Source of the DNA: Minisyncoccota bacterium
GTDB taxonomy: Bacteria > Patescibacteriota > Minisyncoccia > Phycocordibacterales > JABAAK01
Direction of reading: 5' to 3'
Assembly: GCA_963668425.1 (NCBI GenBank)
Contig: OY764332.1
Coordinates: forward strand, 188,943-252,942
DNA: 64,000 nt
Below the pieces are notes generated by a model that was given only the letters and a program-made list of their open reading frames with translations, had not been told where the DNA came from and ran no database searches. The first letter of the stretch is position 1. Each line of letters starts with the position of its first letter. Below are positions 11,567 through 28,969 of the stretch, piece after piece. Position numbers and translations under genes: made by a program.

Positions 11567-12277
11567 TTACCTCTTACTAACAACAATATCGTCAAAATGC
11601 TTGTTTTGTGTTGCTGTTAACATATCTTTTCGTATCAATTCTAATACCGCAAGAAAAGAAATAATTTTTTCCTGCTTGTCTGCTTTTGCGGATAACGACT
11701 GAAACGATACTGACACCCGTTTTGTTACTGCGGCAAGCACTCGCTCAATTATCTCCTCTATCCGCACTTTTGCTCTGACTTTTTTCTGTGGTGGCTCCCG
11801 CAGAAATGATAATCCTTGTAATACAGCATCCGCATTGCGTTGTAACCCTTTCACGGTACATGAGTTATCAGGAAGAAACATAACCTGTTTTGTCGTGCTC
11901 TGTATTGCTACTACGGATGACCGTTTTTTCCAGCTGTTCAGTGCCGGCACTACTTGCATGCGGATGAAGTCAAATAATTTCATTCTGTCTTCTAGCTCGG
12001 CAACATCCACCTCTTCTTCTTCAGTATATTCCAAAACTGGCAACAGTGACCTTGACTTGATTACTATCAAGATAGATGCGATATGAATAAAGCGCGCCAC
12101 TTCCTCTGCCGGTACTGCTGCCATCTCACGAACATATCTCATATAGTCAGCTGTTATTTTTGCTAATGAGATCGTGTTGATTTGCAGTTTTCGTTTTTCT
12201 ATTAACTGGTGCAGTAAGTCCAGCGGACCTTCAAACTGCTCCAACGACACGATGTACTCCTGCTGTTCATTGCTCAT
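11567..12277 (-). CDS. scpA: segregation and condensation protein A
   Basis: MSNEQQEYIVSLEQFEGPLDLLHQLIEKRKLQINTISLAKITADYMRYV is the canonical ScpA N-terminus. Start at Met20 of the ORF (12277). Confidence 0.85.
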   Translation of the reverse strand: MSNEQQEYIVSLEQFEGPLDLLHQLIEKRKLQINTISLAKITADYMRYVREMAAVPAEEVARFIHIASILIVIKSRSLLPVLEYTEEEEVDVAELEDRMKLFDFIRMQVVPALNSWKKRSSVVAIQSTTKQVMFLPDNSCTVKGLQRNADAVLQGLSFLREPPQKKVRAKVRIEEIIERVLAAVTKRVSVSFQSLSAKADKQEKIISFLAVLELIRKDMLTATQNKHFDDIVVSKR

Positions 12278-13607
12278 ATAGACGAGTATCAATTCGGTTT
12301 CTGTCTCTCGGGAAAATCGCCGCTTCTTTTGCATTTGCTAATCCGAGTATCTTTGCGGTAAGCCGTTCTAGCCCAAGTCCCATACCTCCATGTGGTGGCA
12401 TTCCGTACTTGAAAGATTGTAAATAAAATCCGAATTCTTTTTCTGGATCTATGTTCGGTAACTTTTCTTTGATTTTTCGCACCAATTCTTCGTATTCGTG
12501 CACTCGCTGTCCGCCGCTTGTAATTTCCACCCCACGAAACAACAAATCAAAACTTTTTGTGTACCCTGGGTCATCCGCATCGTCATAGGTGTACCATGGT
12601 CGTTTTTCAGTTGGATAGTGTGTTACAAAAATAAAATCTGAATTGTGTTCTTTTAGGGCATGCTCGCACAACTGTCGCTCATGTTCTGGTGTTAAGTCCG
12701 GCTCCCCTACGCAGTCATCTCCAAATTGCGTCTTAATAATCTCCTGTGCTTCAAGTAACTTTATAATTGGAAACGGCTTTTCAGGTAGTGTCGGCATAGT
12801 TGCGCCGAGGATGGCAGTTTCCCGTTTCGCCTTTTCCGCGATAGAGGTGACAATATGTCGCACACACCCCTCTAACATGTTCGTGACATCAGTGTGATCG
12901 GTAATATATCCCATCTCAAAGTCCATACTTGTATACTCATTCAAATGTCTTGAGGTGCTGTGTTTTTCCGCGCGAAACACGTTCCCAATACAAAATGCTC
13001 GTTCAAACACTCCTACCAATATTTGCTTATATAGTTGCGGACTTGTCGCCAATGATGCTTTAATATCAAAATAATCAACTGGAAATACCTCTGCACCACC
13101 TTCCGCATCACCTCCGACAATCTTCGGTGCCTGAAACTCAACAAATCCTTGTGAGGTCAGATACTCCCGAAACCCTTGTGCAATTAACGCTTGCACCCGA
13201 AAAACCGCTCGGTCATCATCTCGCCGCAGTGTCAGTGGACGATAGTCAAACCGTGTGTCTAAGTTCAAGTCCGCCATTTCTAAATCAAATGGCAATTCTT
13301 GTGCTTTTGCTAACACCGTCAGTGTCTTCACTACAAATTCAATGTCCCCGTTTTCTCCTTCAGTGCGATTCTTTTCCGGTCGCTCCTGCACCTCCCCAGT
13401 CAGAGAAAGTACGCTTTCTGGTGATAGTTTCTGTGCATCGGCAAACTTGTCGTGTGCACTCGGCACAAAGCACTGTACTGACCCTGTCCGGTCGTATAGG
13501 TCAATAAACAATAATTTGCCGTGATCCCGCACCGCCGCAATTTTCCCACTGACAAGAACCTCCTGCCCCTTTTTCTCACCAAGATTTTCCATCAAACACC
13601 GCTCCAT
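12267..13607 (-). CDS. aspS: aspartate--tRNA ligase, archaeal/type-2 (short) form
   Basis: OB-fold N-terminus (GKIAAVRDHGKLLFIDLYDRTGSVQCFV). Class II motifs FRAEKHSTSRHLNEYTSMDFEMGY and GGMGLGLERL. About 440 aa, without the bacterial insertion domain. Confidence 0.85.
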   Translation of the reverse strand: MERCLMENLGEKKGQEVLVSGKIAAVRDHGKLLFIDLYDRTGSVQCFVPSAHDKFADAQKLSPESVLSLTGEVQERPEKNRTEGENGDIEFVVKTLTVLAKAQELPFDLEMADLNLDTRFDYRPLTLRRDDDRAVFRVQALIAQGFREYLTSQGFVEFQAPKIVGGDAEGGAEVFPVDYFDIKASLATSPQLYKQILVGVFERAFCIGNVFRAEKHSTSRHLNEYTSMDFEMGYITDHTDVTNMLEGCVRHIVTSIAEKAKRETAILGATMPTLPEKPFPIIKLLEAQEIIKTQFGDDCVGEPDLTPEHERQLCEHALKEHNSDFIFVTHYPTEKRPWYTYDDADDPGYTKSFDLLFRGVEITSGGQRVHEYEELVRKIKEKLPNIDPEKEFGFYLQSFKYGMPPHGGMGLGLERLTAKILGLANAKEAAIFPRDRNRIDTRLYEQ

Positions 13608-13823
13608 ATATGTATTTTATGTATATAACAGAAATAGTATATCACACTATCTTATCTACCTTTAATCTCCTATTTTGTCATCTTGAGTGTTCTGATTGCT
13701 GTTGTGATAAGTTTGGGGATTGGGATGCCTGCTTGCACGGTTAATACTCCACCGAGTAATAATCAGTATCTGACAACTCTTCCAGATCTATTGGACTTCC
13801 ACCTGCATTTCGGAAACCTGTTG

Positions 13824-14084
13824 TTATATTTTCTTGAGTGTAGTCTTATATCCAAAATAATCTTCTATCGCCTTCAGCATTCTTTTTGCCGATACAACAC
13901 TACCACTCATAATGTATTCGTCAGTGTTCCGTGATTCAAATACATCGTCAATAATAATATCAACCCCTTGTTTAATTTCTTCTATAATTACTTGCGATAA
14001 CAGATCACGCTCTTCCCGCCTAAAAGGGCTAGTCGCACATATAGTCATTGAAAATTTCTTTTCTAGTTTCTTTTTATACTCCAT
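13824..14084 (-). CDS. hypothetical small protein (86 aa)
   Basis: ORF only, with no recognisable motif. Part of the AT-rich island between aspS and tRNA-Ser. Confidence 0.35.
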   Translation of the reverse strand: MEYKKKLEKKFSMTICATSPFRREERDLLSQVIIEEIKQGVDIIIDDVFESRNTDEYIMSGSVVSAKRMLKAIEDYFGYKTTLKKI

Positions 14085-14118
14085 ATGCCTTCGCTTACTA
14101 TAATTTTACCCTGTCTTT

Positions 14119-14301
14119 TTAGAGTTTGCTGAGCACCTCTAACCAAATGCTTCCATTTTTTTCATCACTAAGCATATTCATTTTATCAATGCATTCTTTC
14201 ACTGTTTTACAACCATACTCTTTTTTCATCTCTTCCATAAAGGCATCTTTGTAATTTTTAACATGTAAGAAATATAGTAAAAGCGGAACTGCCTCCAGCA
14301 C
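14119..14301 (-). CDS. hypothetical small protein (60 aa, or 39 aa from the internal Met)
   Basis: ORF only. Divergent from the methyltransferase gene, 47 bp away. Confidence 0.25.
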   Translation of the reverse strand: MLEAVPLLLYFLHVKNYKDAFMEEMKKEYGCKTVKECIDKMNMLSDEKNGSIWLEVLSKL

Positions 14302-14347
14302 CCGCCTTACCTGAATATAACCCTCATTTTATTGCTATACTAAAAAC

Positions 14348-15208
14348 ATGACCAAAATGACAAGCACTGCCGGCAAGCAGAAAGTGTGTCGGGAAAGGAA
14401 GGTGTTGATAAATGAAGTGTTGTGTGGGCGGGCGGAAATTGTGTTGAATGATATCCCTAATAATGCGGTAGACATTGTTGTAACATCACCGCCGTACGAT
14501 GGTATCAGGGATTATAATGGCTTTGATCTTGATTTGCATGCAATTGGACGGGAAGTGTTCCGTGTTTTGAAGGATGGTGGTATTGCAGTAATGGTGATAC
14601 AAGACCAAACGAAAAATTTTGGGAAGACACTGACCTCTTTTAAGACAATTATAGACTGGTGCGACAATATCGGCTTTAAGTTGTTTGAGACGGCTATTTA
14701 TAGAAAACACGGGGCGGAAGGTGCGTGGTGGAATAAGCGGTTTCGTGTTGACCATGAATACATACCAATTTTTTTGAAAGGAGAAAGACCTGCTTTTTTT
14801 GATAAGGAGAGCTTAAAGATACCATCAAAGCATGCCGGCAAGACAATACGAGGTGGCGGGACGAGGTTGACCAACGGTAAGAGGATTGATACGCGACATA
14901 TAACAATCAACCCAACAAAATGTCGTGGTACTGTGTGGGAATACTTGACTGCTGGAGATGGCACACGATTGAAGCATAAACATCCTGCAACATTCCCTGA
15001 TAAATTACCGATTGATTTCATACAATGCTTTTGTCCGGAAGAAGGTGTTGTCTTGGATCCGATGTGTGGCAGTGGCACCACTCTCATGGCGGCAAAAATG
15101 TTGGGGAGGGACTATATAGGTGTAGATGTATCGCCAGAATATTGTGATTTATCTCGGAAACGATTGTTGGAAGAACTACCTAATCAAACACTCCGCTTTG
15201 AGGAATAG
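14348..15208 (+). CDS. site-specific DNA amino-methyltransferase, beta class (N4-cytosine or N6-adenine)
   Basis: Motif IV VVTSPPYDG lies near the N-terminus and the AdoMet motif I VLDPMCGSGTTLMAA lies near the C-terminus. The IV-to-I order defines the beta permutation, and SPPY is frequent in m4C enzymes. Confidence 0.85.
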   Translation: MTKMTSTAGKQKVCRERKVLINEVLCGRAEIVLNDIPNNAVDIVVTSPPYDGIRDYNGFDLDLHAIGREVFRVLKDGGIAVMVIQDQTKNFGKTLTSFKTIIDWCDNIGFKLFETAIYRKHGAEGAWWNKRFRVDHEYIPIFLKGERPAFFDKESLKIPSKHAGKTIRGGGTRLTNGKRIDTRHITINPTKCRGTVWEYLTAGDGTRLKHKHPATFPDKLPIDFIQCFCPEEGVVLDPMCGSGTTLMAAKMLGRDYIGVDVSPEYCDLSRKRLLEELPNQTLRFEE

Positions 15209-16154
15209 TGTACTCAACCCTGTTTGTTGCCGTTATTGCAAAAGAAATGGGATTTTTTGTTAATAATTCGTTTCTTCTCCTGAAACTCGTTGTGTTGTCT
15301 AAGACACTTTTGGAAAACTGTATGCATTCAAAATTGTCCCAACACCAGGACTGACTGTTGTATTCCCAACCTGTAAGATCAGATAGCATTTGTAAAATCC
15401 CTTCGCTTTTTTTGACCTCCTCCTTCTCTATATATGCTTGGTTATCACTTCTCACAATGTTTGCCGTCTCTCCGCCACCTCTCTCGGATATCTTTACTTT
15501 TTCTCTACCTCTTCCACCACCTATCTTCTTTATTTTACCGAATAGTTCTTTCATCAATTCCATACTTTCTGCTATAGGTGTGTGTTGTGTGAAAAATACA
15601 TCGTTCAATATGTCATTTCTTGTTGCTTGTAGGAAGTGAAACCAACTTAAACTATTTTCTGGGTATCCGAATATGTTCTTGAAGGTACCGTCGGCATACA
15701 GTAGCGGTGCAACAATACTTGGACTCTTCTCTAACTGCATGGCACTGCCGACAATCGCAATGAGCAGATGTATTGTTCCAAATGGGTATTTGTTTTGAAA
15801 GTCATTTTTAGCGTCAAATCCTCTTAGGTTGTTTGCGGAAATGCAGTTTTTAAAATTATCCCAATTTTCTGGAATCTCATTTTTGTTTGGCAGTAGCATG
15901 TGTTGCCCAACACTGCGTATATTTTTTCTGTACATCTCTACGTCAAGATACACAACAGAAGATGGATCTGTGTTTTTTTCTATTAGCAAAACTTTGCCGT
16001 CATACAATCCTTTTACTTTCCAGTTTAAGTGCTGAGACATGAAAAGTGCGCCTAACAATCCGTCGCAATCAGGGCTTATTACACAGCTTTCTTCTTTTGA
16101 GACAATCCATGGAAACTGTTGTATTATTTTTTGATAGTTAAGAGCATTATCCAT
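15180..16154 (-). CDS. uncharacterised 324-aa protein, candidate restriction partner of the adjacent methyltransferase
   Basis: Convergent with the MTase, with a 29-bp 3' overlap (15180-15208). Start moved to MDNALNYQK (16154) because the upstream 31 codons of the tracked ORF run into tRNA-Ser. No clear nuclease motif. VISPDCDGLLGALF...VVYLDVEM...VGQHMLL is loosely DHH-like by eye. Confidence 0.55.
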   Translation of the reverse strand: MDNALNYQKIIQQFPWIVSKEESCVISPDCDGLLGALFMSQHLNWKVKGLYDGKVLLIEKNTDPSSVVYLDVEMYRKNIRSVGQHMLLPNKNEIPENWDNFKNCISANNLRGFDAKNDFQNKYPFGTIHLLIAIVGSAMQLEKSPSIVAPLLYADGTFKNIFGYPENSLSWFHFLQATRNDILNDVFFTQHTPIAESMELMKELFGKIKKIGGGRGREKVKISERGGGETANIVRSDNQAYIEKEEVKKSEGILQMLSDLTGWEYNSQSWCWDNFECIQFSKSVLDNTTSFRRRNELLTKNPISFAITATNRVEYTIPQSGVFD

Positions 16155-16198
16155 GTTGTTTTTGATATGACTTACTCTTGAAATGCAAATATTTTTAT

Positions 16199-16290
<92 letters not shown>

Positions 16291-16338: not shown

Positions 16339-16734
16339 TCAATCAAAATCAATATCTTCTTCTTTTCCTCTATTTTTTTGATCAAGATAGCTTTGTAAAA
16401 TGATTGTTGCCGCTTCTGCATCAGTTCCTTTTCCGAGTCGTTTTGCTGCTTGTGTGGAGAACTGTTCCGGCTCAAATAGCACTTCTGCTTTTTCGCGCAC
16501 CGCATTTGCAACTTTCTGTACATCTGTCATAATTGGGTTTTTTTTACCATCTAAATCAAGTGACTCACCAAACACCACTGCTTTAATACCCCGTTCGGTA
16601 ATTAATGCCAGCAACTGTTCAATACATCTCTGACGTTTCAATGCTGTAAGTGGAAATGCTATAGACCCTTCGTCGTCGGAAATCGCCACTCCGACTCGTT
16701 CCTGTCCGATATCAACACCCAGGTATTTTTGCAT
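16339..16734 (-). CDS. ruvX: Holliday junction resolvase-like / pre-16S rRNA nuclease YqgF (RuvX)
   Basis: MQKYLGVDIGQERVGVAISDDEGSIAFPLTAL...IKAVVFGESLDLDGKKNPIMTDVQKVANAV. Start at the internal Met (16734), which avoids overlap with the TM2 gene. Confidence 0.85.
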   Translation of the reverse strand: MQKYLGVDIGQERVGVAISDDEGSIAFPLTALKRQRCIEQLLALITERGIKAVVFGESLDLDGKKNPIMTDVQKVANAVREKAEVLFEPEQFSTQAAKRLGKGTDAEAATIILQSYLDQKNRGKEEDIDFD

Positions 16735-16744
16735 GTGCTCACTG

Positions 16745-17008
16745 TTAGGACTGGACATCAATTGTAACTTTGCCGGCGGCGCGCACCACTCGTCCTTCAG
16801 CATCTTTCATGTTGCCGGAGACAATGATAATCAGATCAACAAGCCACCAAACCCCAAAGCCACCTAAAGTAATAAGTTTTAGTACGCCGGTGCCGATTTT
16901 GCCTAGATAAAATCGATCAATGCCAAGACCACCGATGAAAATTGATAATAAAAGTAAAATAATAAAATTTTTGTCACTTGTGTTTGACGTAGTATTTTTT
17001 TCATTCAT
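16745..17008 (-). CDS. TM2 domain-containing membrane protein
   Basis: LLSIFIGGLGIDRFYLGKIGTGVLKLITLGGFGVWWLVDLIII is the TM2 signature (G.hG.hRFYhG....G..hh). Confidence 0.8.
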   Translation of the reverse strand: MNEKNTTSNTSDKNFIILLLLSIFIGGLGIDRFYLGKIGTGVLKLITLGGFGVWWLVDLIIIVSGNMKDAEGRVVRAAGKVTIDVQS

Positions 17009-17046
17009 ATGCTTTCACTATACCACAATGTATACCATGTCAAACC

Positions 17047-18039
17047 CTATACAATACCGAGAACCTGCTTTACTTTTGTTAGCTGTTTAGTGAAAAGGGT
17101 GCTTACTTTTTTCCTGTTGCGTTCTAGCACTTTCTCAAGATATCTTGTATCTTTGCTGATTTTTTCATATTTTTCTCGTGCATCTTTAAAGTATGTCAGA
17201 TACTGCTCCACCAACACCTCTTTTAGCTCTTTATAGGTACTGTCCCCCTTGCTACAGCGATTTGCTATCGTGCCATACTCCTCTCGTGGCATTATTTTCT
17301 CAAGATATATACACGGCAAGCAGGTTTCTGTATTGATGGGCTGACCCTGTGGCGTTGAATCGGTAACAATGCTCATTATCCGTTTGCGTATTGTTTCCTC
17401 ATCAGCAAAAATTGGTAGAGTGTTTCCTTTTGATTTACTCATCTTTTCACCATCAAGACCGGGAATAATAGCAACCTCCTTCTGTATTTGCTCCTGTGGC
17501 TCTGTAAAATAGTCCTCATGAGCAATATGATTAAATTTTCGTGCTATTTCTCGGGTTAATTCTACATGCTGTGCCTGATCCTGCCCTACTGGCACCACCT
17601 GTGCGTCGGCGATTAAAATGTCTGCCGCCATCAATGCAGGGTATAAAAATACTCCTAACCCAACATCTTGTTTTTCTTGCGCTGCATCTTTATATGCGTG
17701 TCCTGTTGTTAAAAAATTATGTTTCAACATACAACTGATAATCCACATCAGCTCTGCAATCTGTGGAAAATCTGACTGTCTATACACAATTGATTTTTTC
17801 GGATCTATTCCTAATGCAATACTCGCGGCGAGCAGATGTTGGCTGTTTTCTTTTCGCTCTGTGGCACTGTGCTGCGCCTGCTCGTTACTTATATCTGTTA
17901 GTGCGTGCAAATCAGCAATAAAAAAATACATTTCCCCTTCATCCTGCGCATCAGTCATTTGTCTGAGAGCACCAAAGTAATTTCCCATATGCAGTGCCCC
18001 TGTCGGCTGCAATCCTGTTAAAATCCTTTTTTTATTCAT
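17047..18039 (-). CDS. trpS: tryptophan--tRNA ligase
   Basis: ILTGLQPTGALHMGNYFGALRQ (HIGH region) and KMSKSKGN (KMSKS). Confidence 0.92.
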   Translation of the reverse strand: MNKKRILTGLQPTGALHMGNYFGALRQMTDAQDEGEMYFFIADLHALTDISNEQAQHSATERKENSQHLLAASIALGIDPKKSIVYRQSDFPQIAELMWIISCMLKHNFLTTGHAYKDAAQEKQDVGLGVFLYPALMAADILIADAQVVPVGQDQAQHVELTREIARKFNHIAHEDYFTEPQEQIQKEVAIIPGLDGEKMSKSKGNTLPIFADEETIRKRIMSIVTDSTPQGQPINTETCLPCIYLEKIMPREEYGTIANRCSKGDSTYKELKEVLVEQYLTYFKDAREKYEKISKDTRYLEKVLERNRKKVSTLFTKQLTKVKQVLGIV

Positions 18040-24231: not shown

Positions 24232-25569
24232 CTATAATCGTAGCATCCAAAGAGCCATGTCATATTTATTTATAAAAAACAGAAATTCTCCGTCTGTGCT
24301 TATTTGAGGGTGAACAACGTCAAATGTAGTGTTGTTAGAAAGGAGTTGAATTTCATCCTGATCAGGTGAGAGTGGTAATTGCTTTTCTCCTGTTGCTGCA
24401 TTCACTAATATAATCACATCGTTCAAAGAAATGTCCCCCTGGTACCACGAGTCAGGAAACATTGTTTCATACCCAGAAAGGGTTTCTGCAGGGACAGATT
24501 TCGGCACGGCACATACAAATACTCCATTCACTGTATCACATTTTTCAGGTAGCGTTATTGGTAGGTCAATAGAAACGCTTCGGTCTCGATTAGTAATGGA
24601 TGCTTTTCCGGCGAAATTATCCGCCTTTGTTTCAAACAACATAAAATATCCTGTTGTTGTGTCCATCAAAGCCGATCCACCTGAGTCAAGAGAAACGAAT
24701 TGCTCATCGGGCAGAACACCTTTCGGATCAATAAGATACACAAACCCTTTCATGAGATCAGTGACAGGGGTGTGCAATGTGATGTGCGTGCCATTACCCC
24801 ATCGCGGAATCCAAGAGGTGAAATCTGATCGCCAAATCACTTGTGTCTTTGATGGATTTGAGACATCAACAATGACACCAACTGATTTGTCATCAATCAC
24901 CTGAATAAAAAAGAGGAGGTTTTTATTATTTGTTGCGACACGAATGTTGTCCTCAAACCGCTGGACACTTGGACTGGTGTTGACTGTAGAAAAAGGAACA
25001 AATGCAGATCGTATTACGGATTCGTCATCGGCACTTTCATATAGCACAAGCACCTCACCATTTTCAAACGGATACCCCTCAACCGCTCGGGTAAATTCAC
25101 CACGCGCAGTCAGTGTTAAAGAGTACGGAATAGCTTGTACTGCATACCGATTTCCCCGCCCTTGCTCAACAACCTGCACTTCCCAGCCATCTCCTTTCTT
25201 CGCGACACGATACCCTGCTGTTGGACCCTTAAAGAGTCGTATTAGCCGTGGTATGTTTTCCTTGTCTTCGGTGATAGTGTCATTAATATCATTACGCTCA
25301 TCGGATAGTGGAATTGTACGCACCCGATCATCCCGCTGCCCCACCTCATCATTAGAAACAGAGCGCTCAAAAGAGATTTGATTCGGTTGTGTTGCTTCAA
25401 GGTTATTAAGACCGAGAGATGGCACTTGTGGAAGAGTGGGTGTAGTTGTTTCCGGCGGCGCAGGAGTAGGTGGCTCTGCGGAGAAATATACATAAATACC
25501 GGCGAAAAGTAATGCGAGAAACACTAAAAAAACAATTACAGCAATAGTAAACCTTTTTATAGGAGTCAT
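24232..25569 (-). CDS. hypothetical membrane-anchored protein, Pro/Thr linker + beta-propeller-like (PD40/TolB-like by eye) ectodomain
   Basis: N-terminal TM FTIAVIVFLVFLALLFAGIYVYF, linker PPTPAPPETTTPTLPQVPS, C-terminal ...HPQISTDGEFLFFINKYDMALWMLRL. Confidence 0.6.
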   Translation of the reverse strand: MTPIKRFTIAVIVFLVFLALLFAGIYVYFSAEPPTPAPPETTTPTLPQVPSLGLNNLEATQPNQISFERSVSNDEVGQRDDRVRTIPLSDERNDINDTITEDKENIPRLIRLFKGPTAGYRVAKKGDGWEVQVVEQGRGNRYAVQAIPYSLTLTARGEFTRAVEGYPFENGEVLVLYESADDESVIRSAFVPFSTVNTSPSVQRFEDNIRVATNNKNLLFFIQVIDDKSVGVIVDVSNPSKTQVIWRSDFTSWIPRWGNGTHITLHTPVTDLMKGFVYLIDPKGVLPDEQFVSLDSGGSALMDTTTGYFMLFETKADNFAGKASITNRDRSVSIDLPITLPEKCDTVNGVFVCAVPKSVPAETLSGYETMFPDSWYQGDISLNDVIILVNAATGEKQLPLSPDQDEIQLLSNNTTFDVVHPQISTDGEFLFFINKYDMALWMLRL

Positions 25570-25595
25570 ATGATACTAGTATATCGCGACAAGAA

Positions 25596-27215
25596 CTATT
25601 TATCACACTTAATCCCACCCTCATATGTTTTATCGCCTTGTGTTATATCTCCCCATGTAATATCAAAGCAGTGTGTTGTACTAAGAGGTATTTGTATGGC
25701 ACTGTCTTTATCAAGTAGCGGACCTGTATTTGCCGGTATTATGAATACCATACAAAACTTTTGAACATTCTTGTTAAAGTAAAAATCAACAGTAAACCCA
25801 TCTCCTAGTTTTTTCACCCTATTTTGAATTGAAAAAGCAAAATCACTATTAACGACCTTTGATGATTTATCGTATGCTGTGTATTCTGCAAGAATACCAT
25901 TTGTACCATTGTAGGTGTGATCAATAAAGTGAATCTTTTGATCAGACCTTGCACTCTTAAGATTGTCTACACCACTAATTTTAAAATTAAATTGAGCGCC
26001 GTGCTTTTTTCCGTAAGCAGCACTTAACTCCTCCCCTTTGGGTGGATGAATAAGGTATTGTGTATTTGGACAATTTGTAACAGATGATTTGATGAATGAT
26101 TGTATCTGAGAGGTTAGGTGTGCATCTTCATTTTTATTTTTCCATGGTAGTCCATGCCAAAATTTCTTCTGCACAACTTTTGTTTCAGTTTGGTCTGTAT
26201 TTGGTACTTTCTCAGATTCTTCAACTCCAATAGATACAGCAGGAAAAGCAACAACAATCTCTACGTCATCTGGTAGTTGTATTACTGATTCATCGGGTTT
26301 GTTTGGTGGCGTGCAGTTAATAACCTTCGCCCCTTCATTTTCATTCTCCTCATTATAGGTATATACCCTATCACTCACCGCTCTTGTATATAAAACCTGA
26401 TAAGAATACTGCAATGGAATGGGTGATGTGTCATGCTGCAAAGATTTTTTAATGCTATTTAATTGATCTCTAAAATTAGTGTCAACGATTTCAGGGCAGC
26501 GAGTTATGGTTAGTTTTTTACTTGATTTGTCAAATTCAATACCATTTTCTGGAATTTCCAGATTGTTTGAGTATAATTCAGAACCTTGTCCGACTTCCTG
26601 TAGACCTGTGATTGTTTGAAATAACCTAGGTCGCAGGAGGGATGGAGCAATAAAGTTTAAGATAACCCAAGAAAGTAGCAGAATAGCGGTGCCGATTGCA
26701 GCACTTTTTACTCGCCCTTTTGCGTCAGAAAAAACTGCAACATTGCCTCCAAACTCGGCATAGATCATCCGAGTGCCATGCACTGCCAGCAGTATGACCA
26801 TAAGTATCCCAGAAAGTGTGAAAATGATACTAAAAAAACGACCAAAAATTCCTTGGATTGTTCTACTTACAGACTCCCTGTCATTGTTACTTGCTTTAAT
26901 TTCTTTTCCTGCGCCAAAAATACTGCTGTATAGGTGTAATCTCAACGGCTCTTTCCCTGCTATACTCTGCTGAGCAGGATTAACGGTTGTTGGTGGCGAT
27001 GTTTCGTTTTCATTATCTTCGCCATCTTTGTCATCTTCGCTATCTTTGTTATCGTTGGTGTTTCCTAGATTATCAGGTAATTCAACATCGGCTGCATTGG
27101 TTTCCTGTATGTCAACTATCGGACCTTGTGCAAACAAGACACCACCAAAAAGACCCCCTATACTACAGACGAAAAGTAAACTGAATATCAGATTGTTGTA
27201 AATCTTTGTTTTCAT
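25596..27215 (-). CDS. hypothetical envelope protein: signal peptide, acidic linker, TrbC/VirB2-like two-helix 'T4SS pilin' module, ~330-aa C-terminal domain
   Basis: Start at MKTKIYNNLIFSLLFVCSIGGLFGGVLFAQG (27215). D/E/N-rich stretch DNKDSEDDKDGEDNENE. Helix pair IFGRFFSIIFTLSGILMVILLAVHG...AAIGTAILLLSWVILNFIAP. Confidence 0.55.
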   Translation of the reverse strand: MKTKIYNNLIFSLLFVCSIGGLFGGVLFAQGPIVDIQETNAADVELPDNLGNTNDNKDSEDDKDGEDNENETSPPTTVNPAQQSIAGKEPLRLHLYSSIFGAGKEIKASNNDRESVSRTIQGIFGRFFSIIFTLSGILMVILLAVHGTRMIYAEFGGNVAVFSDAKGRVKSAAIGTAILLLSWVILNFIAPSLLRPRLFQTITGLQEVGQGSELYSNNLEIPENGIEFDKSSKKLTITRCPEIVDTNFRDQLNSIKKSLQHDTSPIPLQYSYQVLYTRAVSDRVYTYNEENENEGAKVINCTPPNKPDESVIQLPDDVEIVVAFPAVSIGVEESEKVPNTDQTETKVVQKKFWHGLPWKNKNEDAHLTSQIQSFIKSSVTNCPNTQYLIHPPKGEELSAAYGKKHGAQFNFKISGVDNLKSARSDQKIHFIDHTYNGTNGILAEYTAYDKSSKVVNSDFAFSIQNRVKKLGDGFTVDFYFNKNVQKFCMVFIIPANTGPLLDKDSAIQIPLSTTHCFDITWGDITQGDKTYEGGIKCDK

Positions 27216-28167
27216 TTTGAGCAAATACACGAATAGGTATTTCGGTGTTCTCACCCTGAACAGAAATATCAAGCTTTCTACCCTCCTTTAGATGGCTTGT
27301 TTCGTTATTTACAAACCACCTGTATTGTATCGCATTTTTTTCAAAATCGGACTGATTGAAGTAAAATGGGTACACTGAAGCCGTAATTTCCTCACTCCCG
27401 AGAGAAAGATTTTTGGAGAAAACCCGATCTCGAGCAAGTCCATATAGTAAGGTGTGTGGATATACTAATAATCGCGGTTCAATGATAGGAACATTAATGA
27501 TTTTTTCAAAGGCAACCTTGCCGCTTTTAATGAGTGTTGCTTCAACCTGTACAATGATATACCTATTCAAATAACTTCCACCATCTTCATACACCACACT
27601 ACTAACTCCGGGACCCCGACTGCTATGATATCGTGATTCAATCATCCAACGAAATGAAAAGTCCCTCTCGGTATATATAACACCATCTTGGTCAACATAC
27701 TGTATTTTTGCTGAAAGCTTTATCGGTGTCTGTGGTCCTGCGAGCCGATGTCCCCGATATAGTGGCGTGACTACTGAATCCGCCTCCCACAACACATCAA
27801 AAATAACTGGTCGTATCCATCTGGAAATATCTATAAATCTTTTGTCGCCTTGTGAATCAAAGTAATGTATTCGTGCGTTCACTCGCTTTGGTGCGCTGCT
27901 GGCAATTTCGGTAATCTCCATCTTGTTTGTGTACTCTGCCCGCTCAGTGCCGTCAACATACCATGTGACCAATTGAATACTGGAGATAAATGATTTGTTA
28001 GATCTGATGGTGAAATCAACATACTTACCTGGTGACGGGTACGACTCACTTACAACAATTTCATATGCATCATAACTCCCTTGCACTTGCGCGAATGCAG
28101 TGTGAGAAAGCATTAAAAATCCACTCAAAAAAACAATGTATGCATAGAAAAGAAATAGCGTTCGCAT
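27163..28167 (-). CDS. hypothetical secreted protein
   Basis: Signal peptide MRTLFLFYAYIVFLSGFLMLSHTAFA, beta-rich, no recognisable domain. The 3' end overlaps the next gene by about 53 nt. Confidence 0.6.
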   Translation of the reverse strand: MRTLFLFYAYIVFLSGFLMLSHTAFAQVQGSYDAYEIVVSESYPSPGKYVDFTIRSNKSFISSIQLVTWYVDGTERAEYTNKMEITEIASSAPKRVNARIHYFDSQGDKRFIDISRWIRPVIFDVLWEADSVVTPLYRGHRLAGPQTPIKLSAKIQYVDQDGVIYTERDFSFRWMIESRYHSSRGPGVSSVVYEDGGSYLNRYIIVQVEATLIKSGKVAFEKIINVPIIEPRLLVYPHTLLYGLARDRVFSKNLSLGSEEITASVYPFYFNQSDFEKNAIQYRWFVNNETSHLKEGRKLDISVQGENTEIPIRVFAQNENKDLQQSDIQFTFRL

Positions 28168-28228
28168 ATGGTGTCAAGTATACCCTGAAAAACCACTACC
28201 ACACGCATAAGGTGCTTGACCTGTGCTG

Positions 28229-28969
28229 TTATAGGAATTTTTGTAAAAACTCTGGCGGCCCTATCTTACTGAAAACCGACAGATCTCCGATGAGGAAAAA
28301 TACCCCTAGCGCAATAAACAATAATCCGCCGATAATTCGCATGCTTGGGAGAAATTTTGGTATGTCTTGTAGCCGTTCAGCAGCTTTTGTGTATATGAGT
28401 GCAAGGATAGTGAGCGGTAGCATAATACCTAGAGCAAATGCAGATAATAGCAACATTCCTGTTATTGTTGACCCTGAACTTGCTGCTAATGTTAGTACGC
28501 CACCAAGTACTGGACCGATACATGGCGACCATCCGGCGGCAAATATTGCACCGATCAGCACAATGCCCCACCACGAATGTACCGAGAGTGCTTTCGGTAT
28601 TGGAAATGATTTATTGTTGAGCAACCTTTCTGGCAGTGGTACCGCACGTAATAATACCAGTCCGACAATGATAAAAAATATTGCCCCAACAATTATTACT
28701 ATCGGCTTTATTTCGTTGAATAGCGCCGTCGTCTCACTAAACTGCCCAAATAAGCCAGCAACGCCACCAAATATGGCGTATGTTATTGCAAAACCGATAA
28801 AAAACCAGGTTGTTGTGGTGAGTGTGTACGGGATGTTATTACTATCTTCATCGCCGATGATAAGCGCAATGTATCCTAACACCATCGGATATGTACATGG
28901 CAGAAAGACGGTGATAATTCCTGCAAATATGGTTACTGCAAAACTTATTAAGGATAATTGCTCTATCAT
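28229..28969 (-). CDS. ccdA: cytochrome c biogenesis / thiol-disulfide transporter CcdA (DsbD-family membrane core)
   Basis: Two conserved Cys-containing helices: FLPCTYPMVLGYIALI and GWSPCIGPVLGGVL. Six predicted TM segments. Confidence 0.85.
   Translation of the reverse strand: MIEQLSLISFAVTIFAGIITVFLPCTYPMVLGYIALIIGDEDSNNIPYTLTTTTWFFIGFAITYAIFGGVAGLFGQFSETTALFNEIKPIVIIVGAIFFIIVGLVLLRAVPLPERLLNNKSFPIPKALSVHSWWGIVLIGAIFAAGWSPCIGPVLGGVLTLAASSGSTITGMLLLSAFALGIMLPLTILALIYTKAAERLQDIPKFLPSMRIIGGLLFIALGVFFLIGDLSVFSKIGPPEFLQKFL

What the first reader, a model, noticed from the sequence alone, without database searches (positions are those of the whole stretch)
13608..16198. Restriction-modification-like island wedged between aspS and the 3' end of tRNA-Ser
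Four non-housekeeping genes interrupt a long run of core genes. They are a beta-class amino-MTase (SPPY ... DPMCGSGTT), a convergent 324-aa ORF overlapping the MTase 3' end by 29 bp, and two small ORFs divergent from the MTase. The stretch looks more AT-rich than its flanks by eye (not computed). It abuts the 3' end of tRNA-Ser(GGA), a classic integration site. However, I see no integrase and could not find a direct repeat of the tRNA 3' end at the aspS-side border. It may therefore be an old or non-canonical acquisition.
Basis: partly seen in the sequence, partly recalled or inferred. Interest (0 to 1): 0.5.

Follow-up and report, generated by a model that had tools for sequence, protein, structure and literature searches.

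The report
Restriction-modification cassette with DHH-fold nuclease
A 2.5-kb stretch inserted between aspS and tRNA-Ser in a tiny Patescibacteria genome carries a mobile two-gene restriction-modification cassette whose presumed DNA-cutting enzyme has a RecJ/DHH-type fold, which to my knowledge has not been reported for restriction enzymes.

Summary
All four ORFs, the 29-bp tail-to-tail overlap, tRNA-Ser(GGA) and the missing integrase and att repeat are as described. The AT-richness is real but modest: 39.1% GC against 42.3%, z = -2.6.

The segment 13651-16168 is an insertion. A relative (L004) has only about 350 bp between tRNA-Ser and aspS. Two other relatives carry different R-M genes upstream of aspS, so this is an R-M turnover hot spot. 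tRNA-targeted integration is not supported.

Only two of the four genes form a conserved unit: the beta-class MTase (PF01555) and the 324-aa ORF. They are adjacent in every one of about 80 other contigs that has room for both, in unrelated neighbourhoods. They usually converge with 4-, 9- or 29-bp overlaps.

AGNCT is strongly depleted: 12 observed against 95 expected here, and 233 against 894 across cassette-bearing contigs. It is therefore the candidate target.

Most family MTases are fused to an intact LexA module; this one is not. No biochemistry exists.

The parts
13651..16168 (.). Inserted variable segment (2.5 kb) relative to the empty site in relative L004.
   Evidence: BLAST and alignments against L004, L003 and L163. 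GC is 39.1% against 42.3% for the window.
14348..15208 (+). Beta-class N4-cytosine/N6-adenine DNA methyltransferase of 286 aa, with SPPY ... DPMCGSGTT. It is the 'bare' form without an N-terminal regulator domain.
   Evidence: PF01555 at E = 4.9e-37. PADLOC MTase_II at 2e-42. PDB 2zie at 4e-20. Homologues are 70-99% identical.
15180..16154 (-). Candidate restriction endonuclease of 324 aa. It has an N-terminal DHH-like domain (about residues 1-185) and a C-terminal domain of unrecognised fold.
15180..15208 (.). 29-bp tail-to-tail overlap of the MTase and ORF324 coding regions.
   Evidence: The same 29-bp overlap occurs in L001 and L002, and 4- or 9-bp overlaps occur in 69 other loci.
14119..14301 (-). 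60-aa orphan ORF with a GTG start and internal ATGs. It is divergent from the MTase and is not part of the conserved cassette.
   Evidence: No family hits. No tblastn hit in any cassette locus. Present only in the strain L163.
13824..14084 (-). 86-aa orphan ORF, not part of the conserved cassette.
   Evidence: No family hits. Its cluster has 2 members, both from this species. It shows 9 nt and 4 aa differences from L163.
13650..13721 (.). Site of a within-species indel. Strain L163 has 1.15 kb here, with a 288-aa ORF and a 108-aa GIY-YIG-like ORF.
16169..16198 (.). About 30 bp of conserved tRNA-Ser 3' flank, shared with L004. It separates the tRNA from the insert.
16199..16290 (-). tRNA-Ser(GGA), the intact border gene.
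   Evidence: Identical in L163.
13608..13650 (-). Conserved aspS upstream region with the core GTGTG(A/G)TATACT, shared by the window, L163, L003 and L004. It is the other border of the variable region.
12267..13607 (-). aspS, the flanking core gene.
   Evidence: PF00152 at 1e-79.

Best explanation
The segment 13651-16168 is a horizontally acquired insert in a recombination hot spot just upstream of aspS. Its functional core is a two-gene Type II restriction-modification cassette.

Proposed mechanism:
- The beta-class MTase (SPPY catalytic motif, so probably N4-methylcytosine; inferred) methylates the host's copies of a short palindrome. Genome-wide site avoidance points to AGNCT (inferred).
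- The convergent 324-aa protein is the cognate nuclease that cuts unmethylated copies (inferred). Its catalytic domain would be a divergent DHH (RecJ/NrnA-type) two-metal phosphoesterase domain. The C-terminal domain replaces DHHA1 and would read the DNA sequence (inferred).
- The conserved 3'-end overlap of the two genes means each transcript reads into the other gene. This offers a simple way to balance M and R (inferred).
- In most family members the MTase carries an N-terminal, cleavage-competent LexA module. That would make M expression self-repressed and DNA-damage-responsive (inferred). The copy in this window lacks it.
- ORF86 and ORF60 are species-specific passengers of unknown role.

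Shown: the insertion, the gene pairing and co-mobility, the MTase identity, the DHH-like fold, the site depletion, and loss of R with retention of M in a relative.

Not shown: nuclease activity, the target site and the methylated base.
For: Insertion and hot spot:
- L004 has tRNA-Ser then aspS after about 350 bp.
- L003 has a D12 MTase and an EcoRI-like gene upstream of aspS.
- L164 has a multi-MTase island there.
- L163, the same species, differs by a 1.15-kb indel.

Pairing:
- An MTase homologue sits next to the ORF324 homologue in every locus with room, among 80 metagenome loci plus L001 and L002, in unrelated neighbourhoods.
- Overlaps of 4, 9 and 29 bp occur in 43, 26 and 2 loci.
- Four loci have the tandem M-then-R order instead.
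- Three viral contigs carry a distant pair.
- The MTase is far more conserved (70-80%) than its partner (about 45%), as is usual for R-M.

Decay pattern:
- L164 keeps an 88%-identical MTase but only a 31-aa remnant of ORF324.

Fold:
- AF2 gives pLDDT 91.5 and pTM 0.92.
- The best Foldseek hit is RecJ-Cdc45.
- D29, D31, D71, E73, H85 and D155 are invariant. By my reading they sit at the positions of DHH motifs I, II, III and IV: SPDxDG, LDxE, G(Q/H)H and LLYxDGTFKN.
- The C-terminal domain matches no known nuclease fold.

Selection:
- Both genes are intact in two strains, with mostly synonymous differences.

Target:
- AGNCT is 12 observed against 94.8 expected in the window.
- Pooled over 61 cassette-bearing loci it is 233 against 894 (ratio 0.26, z = -22), and below 0.5 in 53 of 60 loci. 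That makes it the most consistently depleted palindrome.
- It is not depleted in L006 (53 against 47) or in Firmicutes controls (0.88-0.90).
Against: - There is no biochemical evidence.
- There is no sequence-level match to DHH (Pfam E up to 10; PDB profile search).
- Motif III lacks its Asp (G-Q/H-H instead of D-H-H).
- As far as I know, characterised DHH enzymes are exonucleases or small-substrate phosphodiesterases, not site-specific endonucleases.
- AGNCT is also depleted in L003 and L004, which lack the cassette in the 20 kb that could be read. The depletion could therefore come from another system common in this clade.
- Only one clean Patescibacteria control without the cassette (L006) was available.
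- L002 and the viral contigs carry the pair without AGNCT depletion.
Confidence: 0.62

Rival explanations
1. The pair is a methylation-keyed defence or addiction module, but ORF324 is not a sequence-specific endonuclease. It would act as a DHH-type exonuclease or nickase that degrades unmethylated DNA from ends or nicks made by something else, or as a phosphodiesterase acting on a nucleotide signal. In that case this is a non-canonical system rather than Type II R-M.
For: All structural neighbours are exonucleases or small-substrate phosphodiesterases. No known REase fold appears in either domain. The LexA fusion links the family to DNA-damage signalling.
Against: The cassette has only two genes, with no third conserved partner. 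Strong depletion of one short palindrome is what site-specific cleavage produces. The invariant C-terminal domain could supply site recognition.
Confidence: 0.17
2. The MTase is functionally solitary, with an epigenetic or regulatory role. ORF324 is an unrelated or DNA-repair gene, for instance a RecJ-like SOS-regulated nuclease, that merely travels with it.
For: Most family MTases are fused to LexA, the SOS repressor. L164 keeps the MTase without ORF324. MTases outnumber REases in CPR genomes (preprint 10.64898/2026.07.13.738296).
Against: The pair is mobile and patchy, absent from close relatives. It sits among other R-M genes. It occurs in viral contigs. Adjacency with overlapping ends is conserved at 37-75% identity of ORF324. 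Orphan MTases do not cause site avoidance (established knowledge).
Confidence: 0.1
3. The whole four-gene block is a degraded tRNA-targeting integrative element: a genomic island that entered at the 3' end of tRNA-Ser through a site-specific integrase that has since been lost.
For: The block adjoins the tRNA 3' end. Relative L004 has a 20-bp direct repeat of the tRNA-Ser 3' end 208 bp downstream of the tRNA, so this tRNA has served as an attachment site in the lineage.
Against: The window has no integrase and no repeat of the tRNA end, even with 3 mismatches. About 30 bp of conserved flank lie between the tRNA and the insert. The variability is anchored on the aspS side in L003 and L164, which lack the tRNA there. 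The cassette sits in non-tRNA contexts elsewhere.
Confidence: 0.08

Closest known systems
Type II restriction-modification systems with a beta-class amino-MTase and a convergent REase gene (PvuII-, BamHI- and SmaI-type organisation)
   Same: There are two separate genes. The MTase has the SPPY and FxGxG motifs in beta order. The arrangement is tail to tail. The cassette is mobile. The MTase is more conserved than its partner. R can be lost while M is kept. A short palindrome is avoided in host DNA.
   Different: The partner matches none of the REase families in Pfam, NCBIfam or PADLOC, and none of the five known REase folds. No C-protein is present. The coding regions overlap at their 3' ends.
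R.PabI / HALFPIPE restriction glycosylases (review PMC10273834)
   Same: The discovery logic is the same. An uncharacterised gene that co-moves with an MTase gene and is absent from the empty site of a relative is taken as an REase of new fold. Strong avoidance of the recognition site in host genomes is also shared.
   Different: The fold is different (DHH-like alpha/beta, not half-pipe). The conserved Asp/His cluster predicts metal-dependent phosphodiester hydrolysis, not base excision.
DHH phosphoesterase superfamily (RecJ, archaeal RecJ/GAN/Cdc45, NrnA, GdpP, PggH, family II pyrophosphatase)
   Different: There is no HMM-level similarity. The Asp of motif III is replaced by Gly. There is no DHHA1/DHHA2 domain, and an unrelated 140-residue C-terminal domain takes its place. 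The gene is strictly paired with a DNA MTase.
MTases with N-terminal HTH autoregulatory domains (M.SsoII, M.EcoRII, M.MspI type)
   Same: In most family members the MTase carries an N-terminal DNA-binding domain that could repress its own promoter.
   Different: Here the added module is a complete LexA: an HTH plus an S24 autoprotease, with the Ala-Gly site and the Ser and Lys intact in 35 of 35 sequences. I found no report of this arrangement. The window's own MTase lacks any such domain.

Membership tests
Type II restriction-modification system | A DNA MTase with SAM-binding and catalytic motifs | tested here: met
   PF01555 at E = 4.9e-37; SPPY and DPMCGSGTT are present.
Type II restriction-modification system | A separate adjacent gene that co-occurs and co-moves with the MTase | tested here: met
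   The two genes are adjacent in every locus with room among about 80 loci in unrelated contexts. An empty site exists in L004.
Type II restriction-modification system | A partner that belongs to a known REase family or fold (PD-(D/E)XK, HNH, GIY-YIG, PLD, half-pipe) | tested here: not met
Type II restriction-modification system | Site-specific cleavage that is blocked by the cognate methylation | not testable with these tools
   This needs enzyme assays and a methylome.
Type II restriction-modification system | Avoidance of the recognition palindrome in host DNA | tested here: inconclusive
   AGNCT is 12 against 95 in the window and 233 against 894 pooled, and below 0.5 in 53 of 60 loci. The link to this cassette is correlative, because L003 and L004 also avoid the site.
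Beta-class N6A/N4C amino-methyltransferases (PF01555) | Motif IV ((S/D)PP(Y/F)) N-terminal to motif I (FxGxG) | tested here: met
   SPPY lies near residue 47 and DPMCGSGTT near residue 236.
Beta-class N6A/N4C amino-methyltransferases (PF01555) | Identity of the target base (N4-C or N6-A) | not testable with these tools
   SPPY and the better PDB scores for N4C MTases (8s9n, 1boo) only suggest m4C.
DHH phosphoesterase superfamily | The DHH-domain fold | tested here: met
DHH phosphoesterase superfamily | The four motifs DXD, D, DHH and D | tested here: inconclusive
   D29xD31, D71 and D155 are invariant, and motif III reads G-(Q/H)-H85. The motif assignment comes from order and secondary structure, not from a residue-level structural alignment.
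DHH phosphoesterase superfamily | A match to the family HMM (PF01368) | tested here: not met
   None of the 36 members matches, even at E up to 10.
DHH phosphoesterase superfamily | A C-terminal DHHA1/DHHA2 domain | tested here: not met
tRNA-targeting integrative genomic island | An integrase gene | tested here: not met
   There is no such ORF or Pfam hit in 13608-16198.
tRNA-targeting integrative genomic island | A direct repeat of the tRNA 3' end at the far border | tested here: not met
   The only match in the window is the tRNA itself, with 3 mismatches allowed.
C-protein-controlled R-M system | A small HTH controller gene next to R or M | tested here: not met
   ORF86 and ORF60 have no HTH or any other family hit, and they are absent from all other cassettes.
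LexA-fused MTase variant of this cassette | An N-terminal LexA_DNA_bind plus Peptidase_S24 module on the MTase | tested here: not met
   The window MTase has 286 aa, and no LexA remnant lies upstream. The module is present in 42 of 63 complete homologues.

The most novel reading that the evidence does not exclude
The ORF324 family would be a sixth structural class of restriction endonuclease: a DHH (RecJ-like) two-metal phosphoesterase turned into a site-specific DNA cutter. It is widespread in Patescibacteria (about 600 sequence clusters). It would recognise AGNCT, a specificity I could not find described. In most members its cognate MTase is fused to a self-cleaving LexA, which would tie R-M homeostasis directly to the SOS response: DNA damage from self-restriction would release more MTase.
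Probability: 0.35. Interest if true: 0.85.

Novelty: new variant of a known kind. Interest (0 to 1): 0.62.

Why it matters
New catalytic folds among restriction enzymes are rare. The review read lists only the PD-(D/E)xK, GIY-YIG, HNH and PLD superfamilies plus the PabI HALFPIPE fold.

- A DHH-based enzyme would show that an exonuclease or phosphodiesterase scaffold can evolve sequence-specific cleavage.
- It could yield a new specificity for use as a tool (AGNCT).
- Because the partner matches no known REase family, homology-based surveys would probably count this family's MTases as orphans. That may contribute to the excess of MTases over REases reported for CPR genomes.
- The LexA-MTase fusion suggests a testable, previously undescribed feedback between restriction self-damage and methylase supply.

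For this genome the practical message is simpler. The aspS upstream region is a hot spot where R-M systems are swapped between strains and species.

Tried and rejected
- Sequence searches for ORF324 found nothing named. This covers Pfam, NCBIfam, PADLOC and PHROGs, PDB by phmmer and by profile, and plasmid and phage tblastn. The two large protein searches returned only unnamed homologues.
- The afdb50 fold library was unavailable.
- I tried to find a DHH gene in the fetched loci for a profile-profile alignment of motifs. None was found.
- A LexA remnant upstream of the window's MTase is absent.
- An att repeat of the tRNA end and flanking direct or inverted repeats are absent.
- The promoter and terminator scan gave fewer sites than shuffled controls and was uninformative.
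- ORF86 and ORF60 as a C-protein or part of the cassette: rejected, because they have no homologues in any other cassette.
- Literature searches found no relevant paper. They covered DHH restriction enzymes, LexA-MTase fusions and AGNCT.
- TCGA and GGCC are even more depleted in this window than AGNCT in absolute terms. They vary among cassette-bearing loci, so I rejected them as the cassette's site.
Full report
**What is in the window.**
- aspS lies at 12267-13607 (-).
- An 86-aa ORF lies at 13824-14084 (-) and a 60-aa ORF at 14119-14301 (-).
- A 286-aa methyltransferase lies at 14348-15208 (+).
- A convergent 324-aa ORF lies at 15180-16154 (-). It overlaps the MTase by 29 bp.
- tRNA-Ser(GGA) lies at 16199-16290 (-), so its 3' end faces the island.

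The MTase matches PF01555 at E = 4.9e-37 and PADLOC Type II MTase models at 2e-42. SPPY precedes DPMCGSGTT, which is the beta-class order. The other three ORFs match nothing in Pfam, NCBIfam, PADLOC or PHROGs. The window has no integrase. It has no second copy of the tRNA 3' end, even with three mismatches allowed. It has no meaningful flanking repeats.

The segment has 39.1% GC against 42.3% for the window (z = -2.6, lowest 1% of same-size windows). The MTase itself is host-like at 43.3%, and tetranucleotide usage is unremarkable.

**It is an insertion in a hot spot, not a tRNA-integrated island.** A scan of species-representative genomes with aspS identified the organism as a Patescibacterium close to Kaiserbacteria/Paceibacterota MAGs. 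Four relatives are informative.
- **L004** is a complete 662-kb chromosome whose aspS protein is 88% identical. There tRNA-Ser(GGA) is followed by aspS after only about 350 bp, with flanking synteny intact. Alignments place the borders of the window's extra DNA at about 13651 and 16168. On one side all relatives share the aspS upstream core GTGTG(A/G)TATACT. On the other side about 30 bp of tRNA flank are shared with L004. The insert therefore does not abut the tRNA itself.
- **L003** (aspS 89%) has a D12-class adenine MTase directly upstream of aspS, and an EcoRI-like gene further up.
- **L164** (aspS 84% at the nucleotide level) has a multi-gene R-M island there, with another N6_N4 MTase, a MunI-like fragment and an MT-A70 gene.
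- **L163** is about 98% identical to the window, so it is the same species. It has the same island plus 1.15 kb more at the aspS edge.

Different occupants in different relatives, anchored at the aspS side, point to a recombination hot spot for R-M genes. Together with the missing integrase and att repeat, this argues against site-specific integration into the tRNA.

**Only two of the four genes form a unit.** ORF324 has about 600 homologue clusters. Nearly all the named ones come from Patescibacteria, and all are annotated as hypothetical.
- In L001 and L002 the homologue sits next to a homologue of the window's MTase with the identical 29-bp convergent overlap. The surrounding genes are entirely different.
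- I fetched 80 metagenome loci with the ORF324 profile. Every locus with room carries the MTase next to it. The genes converge with 4-bp (43 loci), 9-bp (26) or 29-bp (2) overlaps. Four loci have the tandem M-then-R order instead.
- Three IMG/VR viral contigs carry a distant pair: R 37% and M 63% identical.
- The MTase is much better conserved (70-80%) than its partner (about 45%).
- In L164 the 88%-identical MTase survives next to a mere 31-aa remnant of ORF324. That is the classic pattern of R-M decay.
- Between the window and L163 both genes are intact, and most differences are synonymous: MTase 10 nt and 3 aa, ORF324 14 nt and 5 aa.
- ORF86 and ORF60 have no relative in any other cassette locus. 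They exist only in this species, so I treat them as passengers of unknown function.

**What ORF324 is.** AlphaFold2 on a 36-sequence alignment gave a confident model, with pLDDT 91.5 and pTM 0.92.
- The best, weak Foldseek hit is also RecJ-Cdc45.
- No PD-(D/E)XK, HNH, GIY-YIG, PLD or half-pipe protein appears.
- The invariant residues of the family include D29 and D31 (SPDxDG, straight after strand 1), D71 and E73 (LDxE), H85 (G-Q/H-H) and D155 (LLYxDGTFKN).
- From my knowledge of the DHH motifs (DXD, D, DHH, D; the motif IV context is 'DTGxF' in NrnA-type enzymes), these residues fall in the right order and in the right secondary-structure positions for motifs I-IV. Motif III has lost its Asp.

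This motif assignment is my reading, not a residue-level structural alignment. No HMM-level similarity to DHH exists. I therefore call it a DHH-like fold with a plausible metal site, not a proven DHH enzyme.

**Candidate target site.** Orphan MTases do not deplete their sites, but restriction does. In the window, a maximal-order Markov expectation gives 94.8 AGNCT sites against 12 observed. I pooled 61 cassette-bearing contigs (499 kb) from many different organisms.
- AGNCT is 233 observed against 894 expected (ratio 0.26, z = -22). It is below half of expectation in 53 of 60 loci.
- The next degenerate palindrome, GGNCC, is at z = -10 and is low in only 17 of 59 loci.
- Ordinary 4-mers such as GATC, TCGA and ACGT are depleted in fewer than half of the loci, as expected for variable R-M repertoires.
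- Both AGACT and AGCCT are affected, so the middle base is free.

The controls are thin.
- One Paceibacteria locus without the cassette shows no depletion (53 against 47).
- Firmicutes loci show 0.88-0.90.
- L003 and L004, which lack the cassette in the 20 kb that I could read, also avoid AGNCT.
- L002 and the viral contigs carry the pair without avoidance.

AGNCT is therefore a well-motivated candidate, not a demonstrated site. I found no paper that names AGNCT as a restriction or methylation motif.

**A family feature this copy lacks.** Of 63 complete MTase genes next to ORF324 homologues, 42 are about 483 aa long. They carry LexA_DNA_bind (PF01726) plus Peptidase_S24 (PF00717) in front of the MTase domain. 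Some are even annotated as 'transcriptional repressor LexA'. Others carry an HTH_17 domain, and a few are bare like the window's.

All 35 distinct fusions keep the Ala-Gly cleavage site, the Ser nucleophile and the Lys base. I infer that the module represses the M gene and is removed on DNA damage, which would give a feedback from self-restriction to methylase supply. I found no description of such a fusion. The window has no LexA remnant upstream of its MTase.

**Comparison with what is known.** Functionally this is a Type II R-M cassette of ordinary layout: a beta-class MTase and a convergent partner. The review read lists the REase superfamilies as PD-(D/E)xK, GIY-YIG, HNH and PLD, plus the PabI HALFPIPE fold. 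PabI was itself found because its gene co-moved with an MTase gene, which is the same argument used here. A DHH-type REase is not among these classes, and neither that review nor a 2025 review mentions one.

I therefore file the finding as a new variant of a known kind. Membership in 'Type II R-M' is supported by four lines: MTase identity, pairing, mobility and decay pattern. The feature 'partner is a known REase family' was tested and is not met. Cleavage remains untested.

**Verdict.**
- The R-M-island interpretation is partly supported. The acquisition is real. The tRNA-integration idea and the four-gene unit are not supported.
- The most interesting content is the DHH-fold candidate nuclease, the AGNCT signal and the family-wide LexA-MTase fusion.
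- My confidence that the pair is a working R-M system with ORF324 as the nuclease is about 0.6.
- My confidence that the full novel reading holds is about 0.35. That reading combines a DHH endonuclease, AGNCT as the site and SOS coupling.

Noticed in passing
L004:9653-9880 (relative OZ241963.1): A GC-rich 208-bp insert lies directly after tRNA-Ser. It is bounded by a perfect 20-bp direct repeat of the tRNA 3' end (CGAATCCCTCCCTCTCCGCA). It contains several hairpins, and its RNA fold has z = -4.1. It looks like a miniature or decayed integrative element at the 'empty' site.
   Followed up: partly
window 1-64000 (whole window): TCGA (37 observed against 166 expected) and GGCC (23 against 98) are strongly depleted. 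AGCT, CTAG and GGATCC are depleted more weakly. This implies past or present pressure from other R-M systems that are not in this island. L003 and L004 show the same TCGA and GGCC depletion.
   Followed up: partly
P0148, P0129, P0134, P0155; loci L083-L162: Most MTases of this family are fused to a complete, apparently cleavage-competent LexA (HTH plus S24 peptidase). Some are fused to HTH_17 or to a LexA HTH alone. Several are annotated simply as 'LexA' in public records.
   Followed up: partly
L163:6194-7347 (same species as the window): An extra 1.15 kb lies at the aspS edge of the island. It holds a 288-aa ORF without family hits and a 108-aa ORF with a GIY-YIG-like motif (VPVYTGITNNPKARFFEH; weak phrog_3312 'endonuclease', E = 0.0096). 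The window has 70 bp in its place.
   Followed up: partly
L164:1600-9100: A relative carries a large R-M cluster upstream of aspS. It holds an N6_N4 MTase with an overlapping 354-aa ORF, a MunI-like 105-aa fragment and an MT-A70 MTase. It also holds an orphaned copy of the window's MTase next to a 31-aa ORF324 remnant.
   Followed up: partly
L003:3482-9671: Another relative has a D12-class adenine MTase directly upstream of aspS. It also has unannotated 317-aa and 951-aa ORFs and an EcoRI-like 236-aa ORF. No tRNA-Ser is on that contig.
   Followed up: no
window 25200-28300: This is the only other stretch as AT-rich as the island (about 38.6-39% GC). It encodes a 558-aa protein with a weak T4SS_pilin match, plus 445-aa and 334-aa ORFs without family hits.
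   Followed up: no
L004:6916-9131 versus window 16723-17050: Between trpS and ruvX the relative L004 has about 2.2 kb, with an SPFH/Band_7 gene and a DUF4013 gene. The window has only the 87-aa TM2-domain gene there. This is a second variable spot 0.5 kb from the island.
   Followed up: no
L002:7464-13131 (2.17-Mb contig, probably not a Patescibacterium): Here the cassette has an S24-only MTase fusion of 403 aa. It sits beside a truncated second N6_N4 MTase and a GmrSD Type IV restriction gene, which makes a defence island. AGNCT is not depleted there: 30 observed against 31 expected.
   Followed up: no
L165-L167 (IMG/VR contigs): Distant versions of the M and ORF324 pair occur on contigs classified as viral. 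Phages or prophages may therefore help spread the cassette.
   Followed up: partly
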